Virus record (IMG/VR): IMGVR_UViG_2974607751_000001
Coordinates: 35,533-99,532 of that record
From: a virus
Taxonomy: Duplodnaviria > Heunggongvirae > Uroviricota > Caudoviricetes > Demerecviridae
Length of the DNA: 64,000 bases
Strand: one strand, 5' to 3'
The translations under genes and the position numbers were made by a program. Positions 8,551 to 45,636 of this stretch are shown here, piece after piece; position 1 is the first letter of the stretch; every line of letters starts with the position of its first letter. Below the pieces are notes generated by a model. The model did not search any database and had not been told where the DNA came from. It saw only the letters and a list, made by a program, of their open reading frames with translations.

Positions 8551-11323
8551 TTCTAGCCCCCAATTCAGCAAGAGCTTCCTCATGCATCTGACGTTCTTCA
8601 TCTGTCATAAACTTAACTGGAACCGGCATACATTCGATTTTACAGTAAGTTCTGTACCAGTCCACAATCTTTTCCGTATTCAGATCTTTACCAATACCCA
8701 TCATGCCTAGATACATACGAGCATATTTTGAGTTAGCACTTTGACCTGTCTTAAGGAAGAAATCCTTCTTCTTATTCTTAAGAGCTTCAATAAATGGTTT
8801 GATTGTTACATTTGAACACTTCTTAATATCTTCCCAGAACATATCGTGCATCTTATGGAAGAATGCAGCTCTATCGTTTGGTTTATCCTTGATATACTGT
8901 TCAACGTGTTCCACTGTTACGTCTTTGATAGAATCCAGATGATAATAACGTACCAATAGTAACTTAGCTTCATATGCATCTGCATGACGTGGTGCGCAGT
9001 ATTCAGGAGTTGAGTATAGAATAGCTTTGATTCGCTCTTCAATATATTCTTTACCTGCTCCCTCGATAGTTCCCCAGCTTTCACTGAAAATATCGATAGT
9101 TGCACCCTGATCAAGCAGATAATAACGCAAGGTGCTAGTATAGTTCCTAGATTCCAGCTCACGACGGCGTGCGTACAGTTGCTGAGCTAACTCGACCCAA
9201 CCCTCATCGATATTATATTGCTCGGAACCAGCAGAGAATCCACTCGTAGATTTATCAATAAAATAATAAATGTTCTGAGCACCACGGTCGCGCCTGATTG
9301 CCTGAAAACGCATGTTTGGTGCTTGGTTTGAGGTTCGAGTGATAACAAATACGTTATCAAAATAGTTAAAGTCAACACCACTTGTTACAGATGGACTACA
9401 TAATAAACAATCAATCTGTTGATCAATTAGCTCATTAGTTGTATAATCCAGAATACGTCGGATATCTACATCAGACGTAGAGTTTGAGTGAATTTCTTTA
9501 ACTAACGCACCCGTATTACGACGTAATGCCATTCCTTTTTCATTCAGTTCATCTGGTCCGCAGTCAGATACTAGGATCGATTTCTCACCCATCTCTAGGG
9601 ATGTTTGAAGTGCAACCCAAATACTGGATTCATCAGGGAACTCATAAGCATGAGCTTTTGACAGCATTTTACGGTGATGGTTATAGAACGCAACTGGTTT
9701 ATCAAACTCAATCAAAGAACCATAGGCTTCAATCGTTTCAGCACTAATATCACCATCAGATAGAATTATGATTTTTGCAGTTGCAAGAATATCTCGAAGA
9801 ACCTGAATACATTCACGACGGTTTTTAACAACTGGGGCGAATAATAGGTCATTCATTACTGCGTCACATTCATCAATAAAGATGGCATCGATCTGACCAA
9901 TAAAGCTTTTGAACTTATGTAAGGAGTGGATAGTGGTTGACATACGATTAATCGCACCACGCTTGAAATTAAGCATGTCTACTGATTTATCATATTGACC
10001 AGCACCGAATTTCTTCGCATTTGAAGATACTAATGCCCGGGTATTCGTGATAGCAAGGAAATTACCTTCAATAACTCCAGAGTCTAGCCAACGTACAACC
10101 GCAGTGGTCTTACCAGTACCAAGACTAGCTTTTACAAACGTCATATGGTTTTCTGGTGGCACTGTATTTAACTTCAGGAAGTTATCCGTTTCCAGAGAGT
10201 TAGTTTCTAGTCTACGAAGTGGAACTCCTTTCAGAACTTCTGGAATCTCACGTTTAGAATTATTCACAAACGCTTTCAATGCCTGTTTACGACCATTATT
10301 GAAGTAGTCTTGAATATTACGGCTGTTATCTTTAGTTGCAATATACTCAGATAGAGCTGGTCTAATTTCCTTTTCTAACCAACCAAAATCAACACCGTCC
10401 TCTAAAGCTCTATGATAAAGTTTTGGAATAATACGTAAATACACTCCATCATCAGCTTCTTCTAACTCACTAATGGTTTCTTCTACCTTATCTGAGGCTG
10501 CTTTCTTACCCTTAATTTGATCTAACAAAGAGAAGAACTCCTCTTTAAACTCACCTCTAGTTGTTTCATAGTCCACTAGGTTATTAGGTAAATTTACTTT
10601 CGAACCCTTAACAAACACCAAACGTGACGCACCCTCCGCCTTAAACGGATCGACTATACCATCAATAAATAAGGGATCTGCGAAATAGTGAAGCTGAACT
10701 GAAGAGTAATAAGCTAAGTCGGCAATATCAAAACCGTACTTTTGTCTACTACTTTCATTGATAGATGTGAAAAGGAACTTGATCTGCCCTTGTGTTACCT
10801 TGACGTTAGATTCTAGTATTAAGTGCATTCGAATACCTGGTTTTAAGCCAGCTGAAGATGATGCATGAGCAATAAACCCGGCATCAAGAGGAAACATATC
10901 CTCACTAATACTATTTAACATCTTGATAATATGACGTGCCATGCCAACAAGATCAAACTTGTTACAACCACCTGTATCTACAATACCATCAACGTCCATT
11001 GCAATAATGTGACTTGGGTTAGATACATTAAAGTTGCCCTTCTTACGTCGCACATTAATTTTGGGTGCAAGACAACGACCTCGTACCGCAACGATATGAG
11101 GGTCAGACGTTAAACGTCTCATAAGAGGAAGCATTTCTACTAGGGACTGCGGATCAACCTCATCAATTACATCGAATTTGAATGGCATAGATACCGGTTT
11201 ACCTTCTGGATGAGACGCAGAGAACTGCTTAGCAAAGGTATGATCCTCTACCTTAATCTCTTTCCATAAACCTGTACCTAGATCGCGTGAAAATCCTGCG
11301 TGACCTTGTAGGATGGAAAACAC
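8534..11323 (-). CDS. Large P-loop NTPase / helicase-like replication protein (putative origin-binding or primase-helicase)
   Basis: 929 aa with Walker A LGTGKTTAVV and helicase-like C-terminal motifs. The N-terminal region contains IIAMDVDGI. Confidence 0.55.
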   Translation of the reverse strand: MFSILQGHAGFSRDLGTGLWKEIKVEDHTFAKQFSASHPEGKPVSMPFKFDVIDEVDPQSLVEMLPLMRRLTSDPHIVAVRGRCLAPKINVRRKKGNFNVSNPSHIIAMDVDGIVDTGGCNKFDLVGMARHIIKMLNSISEDMFPLDAGFIAHASSSAGLKPGIRMHLILESNVKVTQGQIKFLFTSINESSRQKYGFDIADLAYYSSVQLHYFADPLFIDGIVDPFKAEGASRLVFVKGSKVNLPNNLVDYETTRGEFKEEFFSLLDQIKGKKAASDKVEETISELEEADDGVYLRIIPKLYHRALEDGVDFGWLEKEIRPALSEYIATKDNSRNIQDYFNNGRKQALKAFVNNSKREIPEVLKGVPLRRLETNSLETDNFLKLNTVPPENHMTFVKASLGTGKTTAVVRWLDSGVIEGNFLAITNTRALVSSNAKKFGAGQYDKSVDMLNFKRGAINRMSTTIHSLHKFKSFIGQIDAIFIDECDAVMNDLLFAPVVKNRRECIQVLRDILATAKIIILSDGDISAETIEAYGSLIEFDKPVAFYNHHRKMLSKAHAYEFPDESSIWVALQTSLEMGEKSILVSDCGPDELNEKGMALRRNTGALVKEIHSNSTSDVDIRRILDYTTNELIDQQIDCLLCSPSVTSGVDFNYFDNVFVITRTSNQAPNMRFQAIRRDRGAQNIYYFIDKSTSGFSAGSEQYNIDEGWVELAQQLYARRRELESRNYTSTLRYYLLDQGATIDIFSESWGTIEGAGKEYIEERIKAILYSTPEYCAPRHADAYEAKLLLVRYYHLDSIKDVTVEHVEQYIKDKPNDRAAFFHKMHDMFWEDIKKCSNVTIKPFIEALKNKKKDFFLKTGQSANSKYARMYLGMMGIGKDLNTEKIVDWYRTYCKIECMPVPVKFMTDEERQMHEEALAELGARNDSEE

Positions 11324-12362: not shown

Positions 12363-12791
12363 TTAAGCAGTTAAACCTGGGATCATATACCCGAAACGAC
12401 GAAGTTTCTGAATCCCCTCATTTACTTCTTCGGGCGAATATGACCAGCCCTCACGTTCATTTACCTGGAAAGCAGGAGCTTCACCAGTGCGATAATTTAC
12501 AATAAGACGGTGATTTGCAGGCATAAATAGCTTATGGTTCAAGGCAAAAACCAGACCCATTTCATCGAGTTCTTTCCAGTCTACAATCTCTTCTACTCCC
12601 TCACCTAAATCCACACTAACTCCAATACACGGGGCTTCCTCTAGCGGGCCTTTAAAAGACAGGAAGATATCATTATTCTCACACCAAATCTTGAGCAGAT
12701 TGATAGTTTCATTATACATACCATTAGGGAGAGAACGCCAGAAGTTGAGGAGTATAGGGTTTACTTCTTTCATGAAAATATTATTGAACAT
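12363..12791 (-). CDS. hypothetical protein, tandem paralog
   Basis: DEMGLVFALN and a C-terminal YMIPGL match the neighbouring ORF. Confidence 0.5.
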   Translation of the reverse strand: MFNNIFMKEVNPILLNFWRSLPNGMYNETINLLKIWCENNDIFLSFKGPLEEAPCIGVSVDLGEGVEEIVDWKELDEMGLVFALNHKLFMPANHRLIVNYRTGEAPAFQVNEREGWSYSPEEVNEGIQKLRRFGYMIPGLTA

Positions 12792-37094: not shown

Positions 37095-37188
37095 GGAAGA
37101 TTAACCCTAAAGGTAAGGGAGCTGTTTGCTAAACAGCCAGTAGCTGTGGAGACACGGTGTGCCAGTTCGAGTCTGGCATCTTCCTCCA
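37095..37188 (+). tRNA. tRNA-Ser (GCT), type II
   Basis: Acceptor ggaagat/atcttcc. Anticodon loop tgctaaa. Long variable arm. CCA is encoded. Confidence 0.6.
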
Positions 37189-37818: not shown

Positions 37819-37895
37819 GGGGGTGTAATCGAATTGGCATAGGTACTGGACTTAAAATTCAGGTTTTGTGGGTTCGAGTCCCACCACCCCTACCA
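37819..37895 (+). tRNA. tRNA with TAA anticodon (Leu) on a type-I scaffold
   Basis: Acceptor gggggtg/cacccct. Anticodon stem ctgga/ttcag with loop cttaaaa. Short 5-nt variable region. CCA is encoded. Confidence 0.45.
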
Positions 37896-39490: not shown

Positions 39491-39715
39491 ATGACTGAAC
39501 AAGAATTGAAAGAACGTAAGCTGGTAATGCTTCGTTTACTAAACATTTTCTCTGGTATGGATGGTGGTATTGACTTCATGCAACTACGTTGCTTTGTAGA
39601 AGAAGCAGAAGGCGAGGCTATCACTAGAATTCTTAAACATATGGGTTTGTTACTAGATGCTGCTAATGTGGCTACTCAATATAAACTCGAAGATTTACCG
39701 GAGCGTGTTGGATGA
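39491..39715 (+). CDS. hypothetical small protein
   Basis: A promoter lies at about 39428-39460. The RBS is ctggagaagcaacATG. Confidence 0.4.
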   Translation: MTEQELKERKLVMLRLLNIFSGMDGGIDFMQLRCFVEEAEGEAITRILKHMGLLLDAANVATQYKLEDLPERVG

Positions 39716-39903
39716 AAAAGTTAGTTAAATTTAAGTGTTGTGGCTCTGAACATATCTTTACACGTCTACGTGAGTTTAAGATGTGTAAGTGTGGTAAATC
39801 AGGCTATGATGCTGGAGACGGTTATTACTCCCGTACTCTAGGAGACTTCAACGATTTAGAGTTCGTTGATCTCGAAAAACAAGATAAATCGACCGTTGGC
39901 TGA
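39712..39903 (+). CDS. small zinc-ribbon protein
   Basis: The motif is CCGSEH...CKCGKSG. Its 3' end overlaps the next tRNA by about 14 nt. Confidence 0.4.
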   Translation: MKKLVKFKCCGSEHIFTRLREFKMCKCGKSGYDAGDGYYSRTLGDFNDLEFVDLEKQDKSTVG

Positions 39904-39965
39904 ATGGCTTAGGCGGAGGCCTGCAAAACCTCTTTATGTGAGTTCGAATCTCATGCGGTCGTCCA
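39890..39965 (+). tRNA. tRNA-Cys (GCA)
   Basis: Acceptor cgaccgt/gcggtcg. Loop ctgcaaa. T-arm gtgag-ttcgaat-ctcat. Confidence 0.55.
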
Positions 39966-39972
39966 AATTTTA

Positions 39973-40055
39973 GGGTCGTTAGCCAAGCGGTTTGGCGGTG
40001 GACTGTTAATCCATGTCGAAAGACAACGTAGGTTCGAATCCTACACGGCCCGCCA
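39973..40055 (+). tRNA. Type-II-architecture tRNA carrying an Asn anticodon (GTT), discriminator G73
   Basis: Acceptor gggtcgt/acggccc. 3-bp D-stem gcc/ggc. Anticodon arm gtgga-ctgttaa-tccat. 13-nt variable arm gtc-GAAA-gac. Confidence 0.5.
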
Positions 40056-40082
40056 ATTTCATTAACAACTGAGGAAATAGAT

Positions 40083-40268
40083 ATGACAACTCGTGCAATT
40101 GCTCGACTAGAAGCTGACCGTGATAATCTAATTAATAATATTAAGGTCTGGGATCAAGAAATTGAAAACCAAAAACTGACGTTAATACAAGATATGCAGC
40201 AACAGAATGCACGTCGTGAAGCTCTAAAAGAGGTTGAGGAAGCTATCGAAAAACTCAAAGCTGAGTAA
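40083..40268 (+). CDS. hypothetical small coiled-coil protein
   Basis: Short ORF between tRNA blocks. Confidence 0.4.
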   Translation: MTTRAIARLEADRDNLINNIKVWDQEIENQKLTLIQDMQQQNARREALKEVEEAIEKLKAE

Positions 40269-40277
40269 ACAAATTAT

Positions 40278-40354
40278 GCGATCGGGGCTGGCTTGGTAAT
40301 GGTACTCCCCTGTCACGGGAGAGAATGTGGGTTCGAATCCCATCGGTCGCGCCA
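40278..40354 (+). tRNA. tRNA-Asp (GTC)
   Basis: Acceptor gcgatcg/cggtcgc. Loop ctgtcac. Confidence 0.65.
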
Positions 40355-40360
40355 AATAAT

Positions 40361-40436
40361 ACATCCATAGCTCAATGGTTAGAGCTACCGCCTCTTAAGC
40401 GGAGGGTTCTAGGTTCAAGTCCTAGTGGGTGTACCA
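40361..40436 (+). tRNA. tRNA-Lys (CTT)
   Basis: Acceptor acatcca/tgggtgt. D-arm gctcaatggttagagc. Loop ctcttaa. Confidence 0.55.
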
Positions 40437-40442
40437 AATAAA

Positions 40443-40566
40443 CATTCTAGCGTGGTGGAGAGGGGACACCAGCTTGCCGAGGGTAGAAGCTCGTTCGATT
40501 CGAGTGAAAGAATGGTTCTCGTAAATCCGCACAAGTGATAGCAGGTTCAAGTCCTGCCTAGATTGA
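40443..40566 (+). ncRNA. ~120-nt tRNA-like element (acceptor-like ends and T-arm gcagg-ttcaagt-cctgc, but oversize core, no CCA)
   Basis: Ends cattcta/tagattg pair. There is an internal second T-loop-like gctcg-ttcgatt-cgagt. The size fits no standard tRNA class. Confidence 0.3.
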
Positions 40567-41818: not shown

Positions 41819-41897
41819 AGATCGCTAGCTCAATTGGTTTAGCAGCACCCGGCTTTTAACCGGAAGGTTCTGGGTTCGAGTCCCAGGCGGTCTACCA
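41819..41897 (+). tRNA. tRNA-Lys (TTT)
   Basis: Acceptor agatcgc/gcggtct. Anticodon arm ccgg-cttttaa-ccgg. Confidence 0.6.
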
Positions 41898-43355: not shown

Positions 43356-43434
43356 GGGGAATGGGTCTGCTTGGAGTGGACACCTCGCTTGCACCGAGGA
43401 TATCAGAAGAGTTCGAATCTCTTATTCTCCACCA
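43356..43434 (+). tRNA. tRNA-Ala (TGC), G3:U70
   Basis: Acceptor ggggaat/attctcc. Anticodon arm cctcg-cttgcac-cgagg. Confidence 0.55.
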
Positions 43435-43440
43435 AAATTC

Positions 43441-43516
43441 GGGGTCATAGGTTATTTGGTTAAACTTACTGCCTTGCAAGCAGTGGAACTCAGTTCAATT
43501 CTGAGTGACTCCACCA
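43441..43516 (+). tRNA. tRNA-Ala (TGC) second copy, G3:U70
   Basis: Acceptor ggggtca/tgactcc. Anticodon arm actgc-cttgcaa-gcagt. Confidence 0.55.
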
Positions 43517-43523
43517 AACAAAT

Positions 43524-43604
43524 GGGGATGTGGCGAAATTGGCAGACGCGCTAGATTTAGGTTCTAGTCTTCGGGTGTGGGTTCGAGTCCCTCCATCCCT
43601 ACCA
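43524..43604 (+). tRNA. tRNA-Leu (TAG)
   Basis: Acceptor ggggatg/catccct. Anticodon arm ctaga-tttaggt-tctag. Extended variable region. Confidence 0.5.
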
Positions 43605-45549: not shown

Positions 45550-45636
45550 GCTGGGTTGGCAGAAAGGCTGAATGCACCTGACTTGTAATCAGAAGGAGCA
45601 ATCCCGTTGCAGGTTCGAATCCTGTGCCCAGCACCA
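45550..45636 (+). tRNA. Type-II-architecture tRNA carrying a Thr anticodon (TGT), discriminator A73
   Basis: Acceptor gctgggt/gcccagc. 3-bp D-stem gca/tgc with an 11-nt D-loop. Anticodon arm ctga-cttgtaa-tcag. 15-nt variable arm gga-GCAA-tcc. Confidence 0.5.

What the first reader, a model, noticed from the sequence alone, without database searches (positions are those of the whole stretch)
39973..40055. Type-II (long variable arm) tRNA scaffold carrying an Asn anticodon and G73, a possible identity-mismatched tRNA
The tRNA has a 3-bp D-stem, a long D-loop and a 13-nt variable arm folded as gtc-GAAA-gac. These are class II features, used in bacteria only by Ser, Leu and Tyr. The 7-nt anticodon loop ctgttaa reads GUU (Asn). 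Seryl-tRNA synthetase recognises the long variable arm and G73, not the anticodon. Such a tRNA would be predicted to be serylated and to decode AAC/AAU as Ser, unless host AsnRS also accepts it. Natural anticodon-identity chimeras are rare and functionally interesting.
Basis: seen in the sequence. Interest (0 to 1): 0.6.

Follow-up and report, generated by a model that had tools for sequence, protein, structure and literature searches.

The report
Phage asparagine tRNA with extra arm
This is a real asparagine tRNA of a T5-like Salmonella phage carrying a small extra hairpin that cellular asparagine tRNAs lack; such tRNAs turn out to be common in phages and almost absent from bacteria, and the hairpin more likely alters how host enzymes see the tRNA than changes the amino acid it carries.

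Summary
The tRNA is real: ARAGORN calls tRNA-Asn(GUU), Rfam scores it 59 bits, and the minimum-energy fold is a cloverleaf. Anticodon GUU, G73 and the 13-nt variable hairpin GUC-GAAA-GAC-AAC are confirmed. The "3-bp D-stem, long D-loop" is not: the D-stem has 4 pairs and a 7-nt loop.

The window is 100% identical to T5-like Salmonella phage STG2. This is its only Asn tRNA in a 29-tRNA set covering all 20 amino acids.

It is not a one-off. More than 119 viral contigs carry an Asn(GUU) tRNA with a long variable hairpin (about 9% of a sample), against 17 hits in 185,579 bacterial and archaeal genomes. The stems covary.

The Ser mis-identity idea is not supported:
- The arm has the size and geometry of E. 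coli tRNA-Tyr, not tRNA-Ser.
- The anticodon arm is 15/17 identical to E. coli tRNA-Asn.
- Long-arm Asn tRNAs keep the acceptor and discriminator profile of ordinary Asn tRNAs.

It is not excluded either. A GenBank note on an identical tRNA says its CUA-anticodon version still suppresses amber codons.

The same phage's Thr(UGU) tRNA has a similar hairpin. Asn(GUU) and Thr(UGU) are targets of the PARIS nuclease AriB, so defence evasion is a plausible but untested role.

The parts
39973..40055 (+). tRNA-Asn(GUU) gene, 83 nt, CCA encoded
   Evidence: ARAGORN; Rfam tRNA 59 bits; cloverleaf minimum-energy fold; annotated tRNA-Asn in STG2 and hundreds of T5-like phage records.
39973..39979 (+). acceptor stem, 5' strand GGGTCGT (G1-C72, G2-C71, G3-C70)
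   Evidence: Pairs with 40045-40051 ACGGCCC (7 pairs, one G-U). Shared by the KpV477 and S133/Bas33 alleles.
39982..39996 (+). D arm GCCA-AGCGGTT-TGGC: 4-bp stem, 7-nt loop with C16, G18 and G19
   Evidence: Rfam alignment. 15 nt with a pairable 13:22, as in ordinary tRNA-Asn. C at position 16 where E. coli tRNA-Asn has U.
39998..40014 (+). anticodon arm GUGGA-CUGUUAA-UCCAU; nt 36-41 = UAAUCC
   Evidence: 15/17 identical to E. coli tRNA-Asn. UAAUC|C is the AriB cleavage context reported for E. coli tRNA-Asn (PMC12409363).
40005..40007 (+). anticodon GTT (Asn, reads AAC/AAU)
   Evidence: ARAGORN; read from the sequence.
40015..40027 (+). 13-nt variable region: 3-bp hairpin GUC-GAAA-GAC followed by unpaired AAC (C48 can pair with G15)
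   Evidence: Minimum-energy fold. Stem covaries in relatives: GUCA/UGAC, AUCC/GGAU, GUUC/GAAC, GGC/GCC. Pair counts on 36 sequences. Same size and geometry as the E. coli tRNA-Tyr arm.
40028..40044 (+). T arm GUAGG-UUCGAAU-CCUAC
40045..40051 (+). acceptor stem, 3' strand ACGGCCC
40052..40052 (+). discriminator G73
   Evidence: Read from the sequence. G73 in 95 of 104 long-arm and 116 of 119 short-arm viral Asn tRNAs.
45550..45636 (+). companion: tRNA-Thr(UGU), 87 nt, similar design (15-nt variable region A-GGA-GCAA-UCC-CGUU at 45594-45608; nt 36-41 = UAAUCA)
   Evidence: Long-arm Thr allele found in about 100 T5-like records. Acceptor G1-C72 and C2-G71 as in ordinary tRNA-Thr.

Best explanation
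This is a functional phage tRNA-Asn. It is charged by the host AsnRS and reads AAC/AAU as Asn. It differs from cellular tRNA-Asn by a small hairpin (3 bp plus a GAAA loop) inserted in the variable loop, leaving three unpaired nucleotides on the 3' side.

It is one allele of a large class of long-arm tRNA-Asn(GUU) found almost only in viruses. The class occurs in T5-like, T4-like, phAPEC8-like and phiKZ-like phages and in many uncultivated viral contigs.

Shown:
- the gene, its fold and the covarying hairpin
- the virus-restricted distribution
- an intact AsnRS identity set and a host-like anticodon arm
- an arm of tRNA-Tyr size rather than tRNA-Ser size

Inferred:
- Asn charging
- the value of the hairpin. 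I propose it makes the phage copy structurally unlike host tRNA-Asn to enzymes that attack host tRNAs, together with C16 in the D loop. It does so without touching the anticodon arm that AsnRS and the modification enzymes need. The best candidate attacker is the PARIS nuclease AriB, which cuts host Lys(UUU), Thr(UGU) and Asn(GUU) at 40|41, three nucleotides before the hairpin begins.

My confidence that the tRNA carries Asn is about 0.75. My confidence in the defence-evasion role of the arm is only about 0.3.
For: Identity:
- The GUU anticodon plus G73 is the E. coli Asn identity set.
- It is the only Asn tRNA among 29 tRNAs that together cover all 20 amino acids.
- The anticodon arm is 15/17 identical to E. 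coli tRNA-Asn.
- Long-arm Asn tRNAs have the same 1-72, 2-71 and N73 profile as short-arm ones, unlike Ser, Tyr or Leu. Long-arm Thr tRNAs likewise keep G1-C72 and C2-G71.
- The arm is 3 bp with 3 unpaired 3' nucleotides, as in E. coli tRNA-Tyr. This differs from E. coli tRNA-Ser and from viral tRNA-Ser.

Class:
- In a scan allowing any variable length, 11 of the first 120 viral stretches are long and none is intermediate.
- Only 17 hits occur in 185,579 genomes, 9 of them inside dense tRNA arrays.
- No significant match in 5,426 complete E. coli genomes (7 marginal hits, E >= 0.7).
- Mean best stem is 3.54 bp against 2.89 (sd 0.07) in shuffles.
- The three central stem pairs hold in 36/36, 33/35 and 29/30 sequences, each with four pair types.

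Defence link:
- AriB targets are Lys(UUU), Thr(UGU) and Asn(GUU), and the T5 versions rescue PARIS toxicity.
- T5's alleles are short-armed with changed 39-41 (UAAGUU, UAAGCA). This phage's Asn and Thr are long-armed with the host-like UAAUCC and UAAUCA.
- BASEL phage Bas33 carries long-arm Asn and Thr with intact sites and lacks Lys(UUU). It is reported to be rescued from PARIS by T5 tRNA-Lys alone, whereas T7 needs Lys plus Thr.
- AriB recognition also depends on features outside the anticodon loop, including U16.
Against: - No aminoacylation data exist for this tRNA with its native anticodon.
- This allele has G1-C72, G2-C71, C11-G24 and G73, which SerRS also uses.
- The depositor's note that the CUA derivative of the identical phage 5 tRNA suppresses amber codons shows anticodon-independent charging by some synthetase.
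- For the defence role: among viral Thr(UGU) tRNAs from diverse hosts, a long arm is not associated with keeping UAAUC (5/19 against 30/82, p = 0.44).
- Long arms also occur on Cys, Ile and Met tRNAs, which are not AriB targets.
- C16, rather than the hairpin, could explain any AriB resistance.
- The Bas33 inference is indirect, and phages differ in how sensitive they are to loss of each tRNA.
- GNRA loops are as common in viral Ser and Leu arms, so the loop says nothing specific.
Confidence: 0.7

Rival explanations
1. The extra arm, G73 and the G1-C72/G2-C71 acceptor make this a SerRS substrate. It would insert Ser at AAC/AAU, fully or alongside Asn (dual identity).
For: - SerRS ignores the anticodon and relies on the variable arm, with support from G73 and the acceptor stem.
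- This allele has G1-C72, G2-C71, C11-G24 and G73.
- The CUA derivative of the identical tRNA is an amber suppressor. The CUA derivative of T5's short-arm Asn tRNA is not.
- One third of long-arm Asn tRNAs have an acceptor plus D-arm region that scores best with a tRNA-Ser profile.
- The D arm is 13/17 identical to E. coli tRNA-Ser.
Against: - The arm is only 3 bp with 3 unpaired 3' nucleotides. This is the tRNA-Tyr geometry, which SerRS does not accept. From my own knowledge, not re-read here: Himeno 1990 and Asahara 1994 found that tRNA-Tyr needs its arm lengthened to gain Ser acceptance.
- E. coli and viral tRNA-Ser arms are longer, with 0-2 unpaired 3' nucleotides.
- The D loop has no 20a/20b insertion.
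- The anticodon arm copies host tRNA-Asn.
- Across the class, acceptor stems are Asn-like: U1-A72 in 65%, and G1C72+G2C71 in only 16% against 87% in Ser.
- The suppressor phenotype is equally explained by TyrRS (CUA is the supF anticodon, on a Tyr-like arm) or by GlnRS (G2-C71, G3-C70, G10, G73, U35).
- It is the only Asn tRNA of a complete set, and the sequence is identical in more than 200 lytic phage genomes. Proteome-wide Asn-to-Ser substitution would be costly.
Confidence: 0.12
2. A neutral relic. The tRNA descends from a class II tRNA in a phage tRNA array: tRNA-Tyr GUA by A36U plus A73G, or tRNA-Ser GCU by C35U. It changed identity by an anticodon switch. The shortened arm is tolerated baggage with no function of its own.
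For: - The arm has the size, geometry and even the stem sequence of E. coli tRNA-Tyr.
- The T arm is 15/17 identical to tRNA-Tyr and the D arm 13/17 to tRNA-Ser.
- The class as a whole has class-II-like D arms: 17 nt, with 13:22 pairable in 37% against 81% in ordinary Asn.
- Asn, Thr(UGU), Cys, Ile and Met(CAU) anticodons all lie one substitution from a Ser, Leu or Tyr anticodon.
- Phages also carry the converse: 60 of 189 viral Leu tRNAs have short arms.
Against: - The hairpin is kept by compensatory changes across at least four phage families, and the tRNA is identical in more than 200 genomes. That suggests purifying selection, not decay.
- Variable-region length is bimodal with nothing intermediate.
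- Gly, Arg and His anticodons are also one substitution away but almost never have long arms.
- The segment similarities are a mosaic on very short sequences. The window's own acceptor plus D-arm region scores best as Val, Asn or Cys.
Confidence: 0.25
3. Not mainly a decoder. The tRNA would act as a decoy or competitive inhibitor that ties up a host tRNA-targeting enzyme, or as a processing or punctuation element of the tRNA operon.
For: The PARIS authors raise the possibility that overexpressed viral tRNAs inhibit AriB by competition. The cleavage-site sequence UAAUCC is retained.
Against: The cloverleaf is perfect, CCA is encoded, and all AsnRS determinants and tertiary-pair positions (G15-C48, G18, G19, T loop) are present. 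It fills the only Asn slot of a complete tRNA set. The CUA derivative works in translation.
Confidence: 0.05

Closest known systems
Bacterial tRNA-Asn(GUU), e.g. E. coli asnT/U/V/W
   Same: GUU anticodon, identical anticodon loop CUGUUAA, 15/17 identical anticodon arm, G73, G15-C48, and a class-I-type 4-bp D-stem.
   Different: E. coli has a 5-nt variable loop (AUGUC), U1-A72, U16-C17 in the D loop and a different acceptor stem. The phage tRNA has a 13-nt variable hairpin, G1-C72, and C16 with no position 17.
Bacterial class II tRNA-Tyr(GUA)
   Same: 13-nt variable region with a 3-bp stem (GUC/GAC in both) and three unpaired 3' nucleotides. The anticodon loop differs at one base (A36 against U36). 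The T arm is 15/17 identical.
   Different: tRNA-Tyr has A73, a GUA anticodon and a 3-bp D-stem with an 11-nt loop. G73 is listed as an antideterminant against TyrRS.
Phage T5 tRNA-Asn(GUU), part of the T5 Lys/Thr/Asn set that neutralises PARIS (PMC12409363, PMC11464382)
   Same: Same anticodon, G73 and the same Cys-Asn-Asp position in the T5-like tRNA cluster.
   Different: The T5 allele is 78 nt and class I (variable GGGUU), with an altered anticodon stem (UAAGUU) and an unrelated body. Its CUA derivative is not a suppressor. The allele tested experimentally is therefore not this one.
Bacterial tRNA-Ser
   Same: G1-C72, G2-C71, C11-G24, G73, and an extra arm closed by a GAAA loop.
   Different: The Ser arm is longer: 16 nt with a 5-bp stem in E. 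coli, 4-7 bp in viral Ser, with 0-2 unpaired 3' nucleotides. tRNA-Ser also has a 3-bp D-stem with an 11-nt loop and a Ser anticodon.
Class II tRNAs with non-matching anticodons: nematode nev-tRNAs (PMC3333845) and bacterial allo-tRNAs (PMC5389517, PMC7609411)
   Same: A long variable arm on a tRNA whose anticodon is not Ser, Leu or Tyr.
   Different: Those tRNAs carry Leu, Ser or Ala identity elements and are charged against their anticodon. Here the identity elements agree with the anticodon, and the class keeps Asn-type acceptor stems.

Membership tests
tRNA (Rfam RF00005) | Cloverleaf matching the covariance model above the gathering score | tested here: met
   59 bits against 29, E = 5.7e-13, full model 1-71. 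ARAGORN agrees.
tRNA-Asn (bacterial type) | Anticodon GUU | tested here: met
tRNA-Asn (bacterial type) | Discriminator G73 (an AsnRS identity element together with the anticodon) | tested here: met
   G at 40052. Identity set from PMC9976931.
tRNA-Asn (bacterial type) | Class I architecture with a 4-5-nt variable loop | tested here: not met
   13-nt variable region with a hairpin. E. coli tRNA-Asn has 5 nt.
tRNA-Asn (bacterial type) | U1-A72 (typical; needed by GatCAB in the indirect pathway) | tested here: not met
   G1-C72 here. U1-A72 occurs in 65% of long-arm and 71% of short-arm viral-contig Asn tRNAs. Not required by E. coli AsnRS, since the identity set transplants into tRNA-Lys.
tRNA-Asn (bacterial type) | Aminoacylation with Asn by AsnRS | not testable with these tools
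   Needs a charging assay.
Class II tRNA architecture (Ser/Leu/Tyr type) | Variable region of 10 nt or more forming a stem-loop | tested here: met
   13 nt: 3 bp plus GAAA. Covariation in relatives.
Class II tRNA architecture (Ser/Leu/Tyr type) | 3-bp D-stem with an unpaired 13:22 and an enlarged D loop | tested here: not met
   A13-U22 pairs and the loop is 7 nt. The feature is met in sister alleles and in most of the class.
Class II tRNA architecture (Ser/Leu/Tyr type) | Ser, Leu or Tyr anticodon | tested here: not met
   GUU.
SerRS substrates (bacterial tRNA-Ser identity) | Long variable arm of Ser type (stem of about 5 bp or more, 0-2 unpaired 3' nucleotides) | tested here: not met
   3 bp with 3 unpaired 3' nucleotides. 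E. coli Ser has 5 bp and 1. Of 101 viral Ser tRNAs, 92 have stems of 4-8 bp and 93 have 0-2 unpaired 3' nucleotides.
SerRS substrates (bacterial tRNA-Ser identity) | G1-C72, G2-C71 and G73 | tested here: met
SerRS substrates (bacterial tRNA-Ser identity) | Charging with Ser | not testable with these tools
   Only an indirect hint: the CUA derivative suppresses amber codons, amino acid unknown.
Phage anti-PARIS tRNAs (T5 Lys/Thr/Asn) | Same anticodon as a host tRNA cleaved by AriB | tested here: met
   Asn(GUU) is a secondary AriB target.
Phage anti-PARIS tRNAs (T5 Lys/Thr/Asn) | Substitutions at or around the 40|41 cleavage site | tested here: not met
   UAAUCC is identical to E. coli tRNA-Asn.
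Phage anti-PARIS tRNAs (T5 Lys/Thr/Asn) | Resistance to AriB and rescue of PARIS toxicity | not testable with these tools
   Indirect only. Bas33 carries sister long-arm Asn and Thr alleles and is rescued by T5 tRNA-Lys alone.

The most novel reading that the evidence does not exclude
Phages have a second way to make their tRNAs immune to host tRNA-cutting defences, distinct from mutating the cut site. They add a small hairpin to the variable loop, next to the anticodon-stem cleavage site, while keeping a host-identical anticodon arm for the synthetase and the modification enzymes. The long-arm Asn(GUU) and Thr(UGU) tRNAs of this phage would be such shielded tRNAs against PARIS AriB or similar nucleases. 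The widespread long-arm Asn, Thr, Cys, Ile and Met tRNAs in viral contigs would be the general form of this strategy.
Probability: 0.3. Interest if true: 0.8.

Novelty: new variant of a known kind. Interest (0 to 1): 0.55.

Why it matters
Textbooks restrict long variable arms in bacteria to Ser, Leu and Tyr tRNAs. Here about one viral Asn(GUU) tRNA in eleven carries one, and the form is almost absent from cellular genomes. I found no paper describing this in the searchable library.

If the arm protects against tRNA-targeting immunity, it would explain part of why phages carry their own tRNAs. It would also give a ready test substrate for what nucleases such as AriB recognise outside the anticodon loop.

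If the tRNA were instead partly serylated, it would be a natural mistranslating tRNA in a well-studied phage group.

Either way, an extra arm that is tolerated by the ribosome and probably by AsnRS is useful for tRNA engineering.

Tried and rejected
- Alternative folds with a Ser, Leu or Tyr anticodon: none. ARAGORN, Rfam and the minimum-energy fold all give GUU.
- Using T5's PARIS experiments directly: rejected. T5's own tRNA-Asn is a different, short-arm allele.
- Using Bas34 as a natural test of the long arm: rejected. Its 'tRNA-Asn' is a deletion chimera with a broken acceptor stem.
- A general link between a long arm and keeping the UAAUC site: not found for Thr(UGU) (p = 0.44) or Lys(UUU).
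- The GNRA loop as a special signal: rejected. It is equally common in viral Ser and Leu arms.
- Body similarity and acceptor plus D-arm profile classification to decide ancestry: inconclusive. Cross-validated accuracy was only 21% for Tyr and 42% for Asn, and the window tRNA scored as Val, Asn or Cys. Segment identities are a mosaic.
- A copy of the long-arm tRNA in E. coli genomes or their prophages: no significant match.
- Literature on long-arm phage tRNA-Asn, and on which amino acid the CUA suppressor inserts: nothing found. Himeno 1990 could not be retrieved.

Full report
WHAT IS THERE

The window is 100% identical over 39600-40500 to Salmonella phage STG2, a T5-like member of the Demerecviridae. 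ARAGORN finds 29 tRNA genes between 31.4 and 46.6 kb. They cover all 20 amino acids, and the only Asn tRNA is at 39973-40055 (83 nt, anticodon GTT). Rfam's tRNA model scores it 59 bits against a gathering score of 29. The minimum-energy and centroid folds are a clean cloverleaf at -30.5 kcal/mol, z = -2.3.

Read from the sequence, the parts are:
- acceptor GGGTCGT/ACGGCCC
- D arm GCCA-AGCGGTT-TGGC
- anticodon arm GTGGA-CTGTTAA-TCCAT
- variable region GTC-GAAA-GAC-AAC (13 nt)
- T arm GTAGG-TTCGAAT-CCTAC
- G73, then CCA

The D arm is not as described. It has four Watson-Crick pairs and a 7-nt loop, which is a class-I D arm.

IT IS NOT A ONE-OFF

The identical 83-nt sequence occurs in more than 200 phage records. 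About 285 records are at least 90% identical. The T5-type allele is found in 134 records.

Sister alleles share the acceptor stem but have different, compensating hairpins:
- Klebsiella T4-like phage KpV477: GUCA-GAAA-UGAC
- Epseptimavirus S133 and BASEL phage Bas33: AUCC-GCAA-GGAU

More distant members, with other acceptor stems, also carry compensating hairpins:
- E. coli Phapecoctavirus nepoznato: GUUC-GAAA-GAAC
- phiKZ-like Pseudomonas phage PA1C: GGC-GAAA-GCC

The same pattern found only 17 stretches in one genome each of 185,579 bacterial and archaeal species. Nine of those lie inside dense tRNA arrays on metagenome-assembled contigs, and several others are not called as tRNAs at all. 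No significant match was found in 5,426 complete E. coli genomes.

When the pattern allowed any variable length, 11 of the first 120 viral stretches were long, 109 were short and none was intermediate. So roughly 9% of viral-contig Asn(GUU) tRNAs of this sequence type have the arm. I could not run the matching short-loop control on the genome collection. The bacterial denominator is therefore unknown, although class I tRNA-Asn is the textbook cellular form.

THE HAIRPIN IS UNDER SELECTION

Among 110 distinct long-arm Asn tRNAs, the best variable-region stem averages 3.54 bp against 2.89 (sd 0.07) after shuffling. There are 67 distinct stem sequences.

On an alignment of 36 sequences, the three central stem pairs are formed in 36/36, 33/35 and 29/30 sequences, each with four pair types. 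Sliding the partner by one column drops pairing over the whole tested structure from 94% to about 44%. One caveat: those 36 sequences were chosen because they have a common hairpin layout.

WHICH AMINO ACID?

Evidence for Asn:
1. The E. coli Asn identity set is the three anticodon bases plus G73. It can be transplanted into tRNA-Lys (PMC9976931). All four elements are present.
2. The anticodon arm is 15/17 identical to E. coli tRNA-Asn, whose sequence I verified by BLAST. Sister alleles reach 16/17. SerRS has no use for that resemblance.
3. The arm matches E. coli tRNA-Tyr in length (13 nt), stem (GUC/GAC) and three unpaired 3' nucleotides. E. coli tRNA-Ser(UGA) has 16 nt, a 5-bp stem and one unpaired 3' nucleotide. 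Across viral loci, Ser arms have 4-7 bp and mostly 0-2 unpaired 3' nucleotides. Tyr arms have 3 bp and 3 unpaired. Long-arm Asn has 3-4 bp and 3-4 unpaired. That SerRS rejects the tRNA-Tyr arm until it is lengthened is from my own knowledge (Himeno 1990, Asahara 1994). I could not re-read those papers.
4. At class level, long-arm Asn tRNAs match short-arm Asn tRNAs closely. U1-A72 is 65% against 71%. G1C72+G2C71 is 16% against 16%. G73 is 91% against 97%. Viral tRNA-Ser has G1C72+G2C71 in 87%, and viral tRNA-Tyr has A73 in 99%. Long-arm Thr tRNAs keep G1-C72 and C2-G71 (17/19) as ordinary Thr tRNAs do. C2-G71 is listed as an antideterminant against SerRS.

Evidence that keeps the Ser idea alive:
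- This allele belongs to the 16% with G1-C72 and G2-C71, and it has C11-G24 and G73.
- GenBank AJ604531 (Salmonella phage 5, annotated by the T5 group) holds a tRNA-Asn identical at 83/83 positions. Its note reads 'replacement of the anticodon with CUA sequence converts this tRNA into amber suppressor'. T5's short-arm Asn carries the opposite note.
- Something therefore charges the tRNA without the Asn anticodon. The record does not say with what.
- TyrRS is one candidate, because CUA on a Tyr-like arm resembles supF. GlnRS is another, because of G2-C71, G3-C70, G10, G73 and U35. E. coli tRNA-Asn suppressors are known to insert Gln. SerRS also fits.

I put substantial serylation of the native tRNA at about 0.12.

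WHY THE ARM?

PMC12409363 shows that the PARIS effector AriB cleaves E. coli Lys(UUU), Thr(UGU) and, less efficiently, Asn(GUU) between nucleotides 40 and 41. The T5 versions of these three tRNAs rescue cells and phages. Recognition also involves U16 and other features outside the anticodon loop.

In T5 the Asn and Thr alleles are short-armed with altered 39-41 (UAAGUU and UAAGCA). In this window, Asn and Thr(UGU, 45550-45636) both carry a 3-bp hairpin with a GNRA loop. Both keep the host-like sites UAAUCC and UAAUCA. Lys(UUU) here has a normal loop and an altered site.

Bas33 (MZ501074) has the long-arm Asn and Thr with intact sites and no Lys(UUU). The paper reports it rescued from PARIS by T5 tRNA-Lys alone, whereas T7 needs Lys plus Thr. 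This suggests that the long-arm Thr works while AriB is active.

The support is thin, for four reasons:
- Long arm and site retention are not associated among viral Thr(UGU) tRNAs in general (5/19 against 30/82, p = 0.44).
- Long arms also occur on Cys, Ile and Met tRNAs.
- C16 is an alternative explanation for any AriB resistance.
- No cleavage assay exists for these alleles.

A neutral origin by anticodon switching from a class II tRNA is a serious rival. The class as a whole has class-II-like D arms, and one third score best as Ser in the acceptor plus D-arm region. The classifier is weak, however, and the segment identities of this tRNA are a mosaic.

KNOWN OR NEW?

The gene is annotated as tRNA-Asn in GenBank, so its existence is known. 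Seven full-text searches found no description of long-arm tRNA-Asn in phages. The PARIS and anticodon-loop-evasion papers do not mention variable arms. The library lacks most subscription journals, so prior description cannot be excluded.

I classify this as a new variant of a known kind: a tRNA-Asn with a Tyr-type extra arm that belongs to a virus-restricted class.

VERDICT

- The Ser mis-identity reading is unlikely but untested.
- The more interesting result is the class itself and its possible link to tRNA-targeting immunity.

Noticed in passing
window 45550-45636 (+); variable region 45594-45608: tRNA-Thr(UGU) is 87 nt with a similar extra hairpin (A-GGA-GCAA-UCC-CGUU), a 3-bp D-stem and the host-like UAAUCA at nt 36-41. 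About 100 T5-like phage records carry this allele. The phage 5 record says its CUA derivative is an effective amber suppressor, unlike T5's short Thr allele.
   Followed up: partly
window 37819-37895 (+): tRNA-Leu(UAA) is only 77 nt with a 5-nt variable loop, so it is a class-I-shaped Leu tRNA. Short-arm Leu tRNAs make up 60 of 189 distinct Leu tRNAs in the viral loci. The phage 5 homologue (1 nt different) is noted as an effective amber suppressor after the CUA swap.
   Followed up: partly
window 43524-43604 (+): tRNA-Leu(UAG) is 81 nt with a shortened variable region of about 9 nt containing UUCG. The T5 homologue is 85 nt.
   Followed up: no
window 41819-41897 (+): tRNA-Lys(UUU) is 79 nt with a normal 5-nt variable loop but extra nucleotides between the D-stem and the anticodon stem. 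Its nt 36-41 are UAACCG, against the host UAAUCA. This is the site-mutation route to AriB escape described for T5 tRNA-Lys.
   Followed up: partly
L252 (Escherichia phage SelmaRatti = Bas34, MZ501103) about 12598-12681: The annotated 'tRNA-Asn' of Bas34 is a deletion chimera. It joins the 5' two thirds of a long-arm Asn tRNA, including GTCGAAAGACAAC, to the 3' end of the tRNA-fMet gene. Three acceptor-stem pairs are mismatched and ARAGORN does not call it. This could explain why Bas34 needed T5 tRNA-Asn for rescue from PARIS although it 'encodes' one (PMC12409363).
   Followed up: partly
L001 (T5, AY543070) 9953-10030 against window 39973-40055: At the same Cys-Asn-Asp position, T5-like phages carry unrelated Asn alleles. 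The T5 type is 78 nt with a short arm (134 records). The STG2 type is 83 nt with a long arm (about 285 records). The S133 type is 86 nt with a long arm. A tRNA gene has been replaced at a fixed locus.
   Followed up: partly
viral loci L002-L247: Long variable arms also occur on other normally class I isotypes in viral contigs. In loci picked for a short-arm Asn they occur in Ile 6/26, Cys 4/17, Thr 2/57, Val 2/28 and Met 1/42. None was seen in Arg, Gly, Pro, Gln, Glu, Lys, Ala, Phe or Trp there. In the loci first picked for a long-arm Asn, occasional long-arm Lys, Glu, Trp, Pro, Gln, Ala and Phe tRNAs were seen, but still none in Arg or Gly.
   Followed up: partly
window 37095-37188 (+): tRNA-Ser(GCU) has U73 instead of the usual G73. 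About 20% of viral tRNA-Ser in the sampled loci have U73.
   Followed up: no
L122, L124, L125, L133, L137 (bacterial-genome collection hits): The few 'bacterial' long-arm Asn tRNAs sit in arrays of 10-23 tRNA genes within 8 kb on metagenome-assembled contigs. They may be phage or tRNA-array elements binned with bacterial genomes.
   Followed up: partly
phage records MK972716 (SE8), NC_048786 (SE11), NC_105825 (ECOP18): In some GenBank records the identical 83-nt tRNA is annotated as a hypothetical protein or left unannotated. One record labels it tRNA-Asx.
   Followed up: no
window 43356-43434 and 43441-43516 (+): Two adjacent tRNA-Ala(UGC) genes with different bodies. The first is 79 nt with a 7-nt variable loop.
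   Followed up: no
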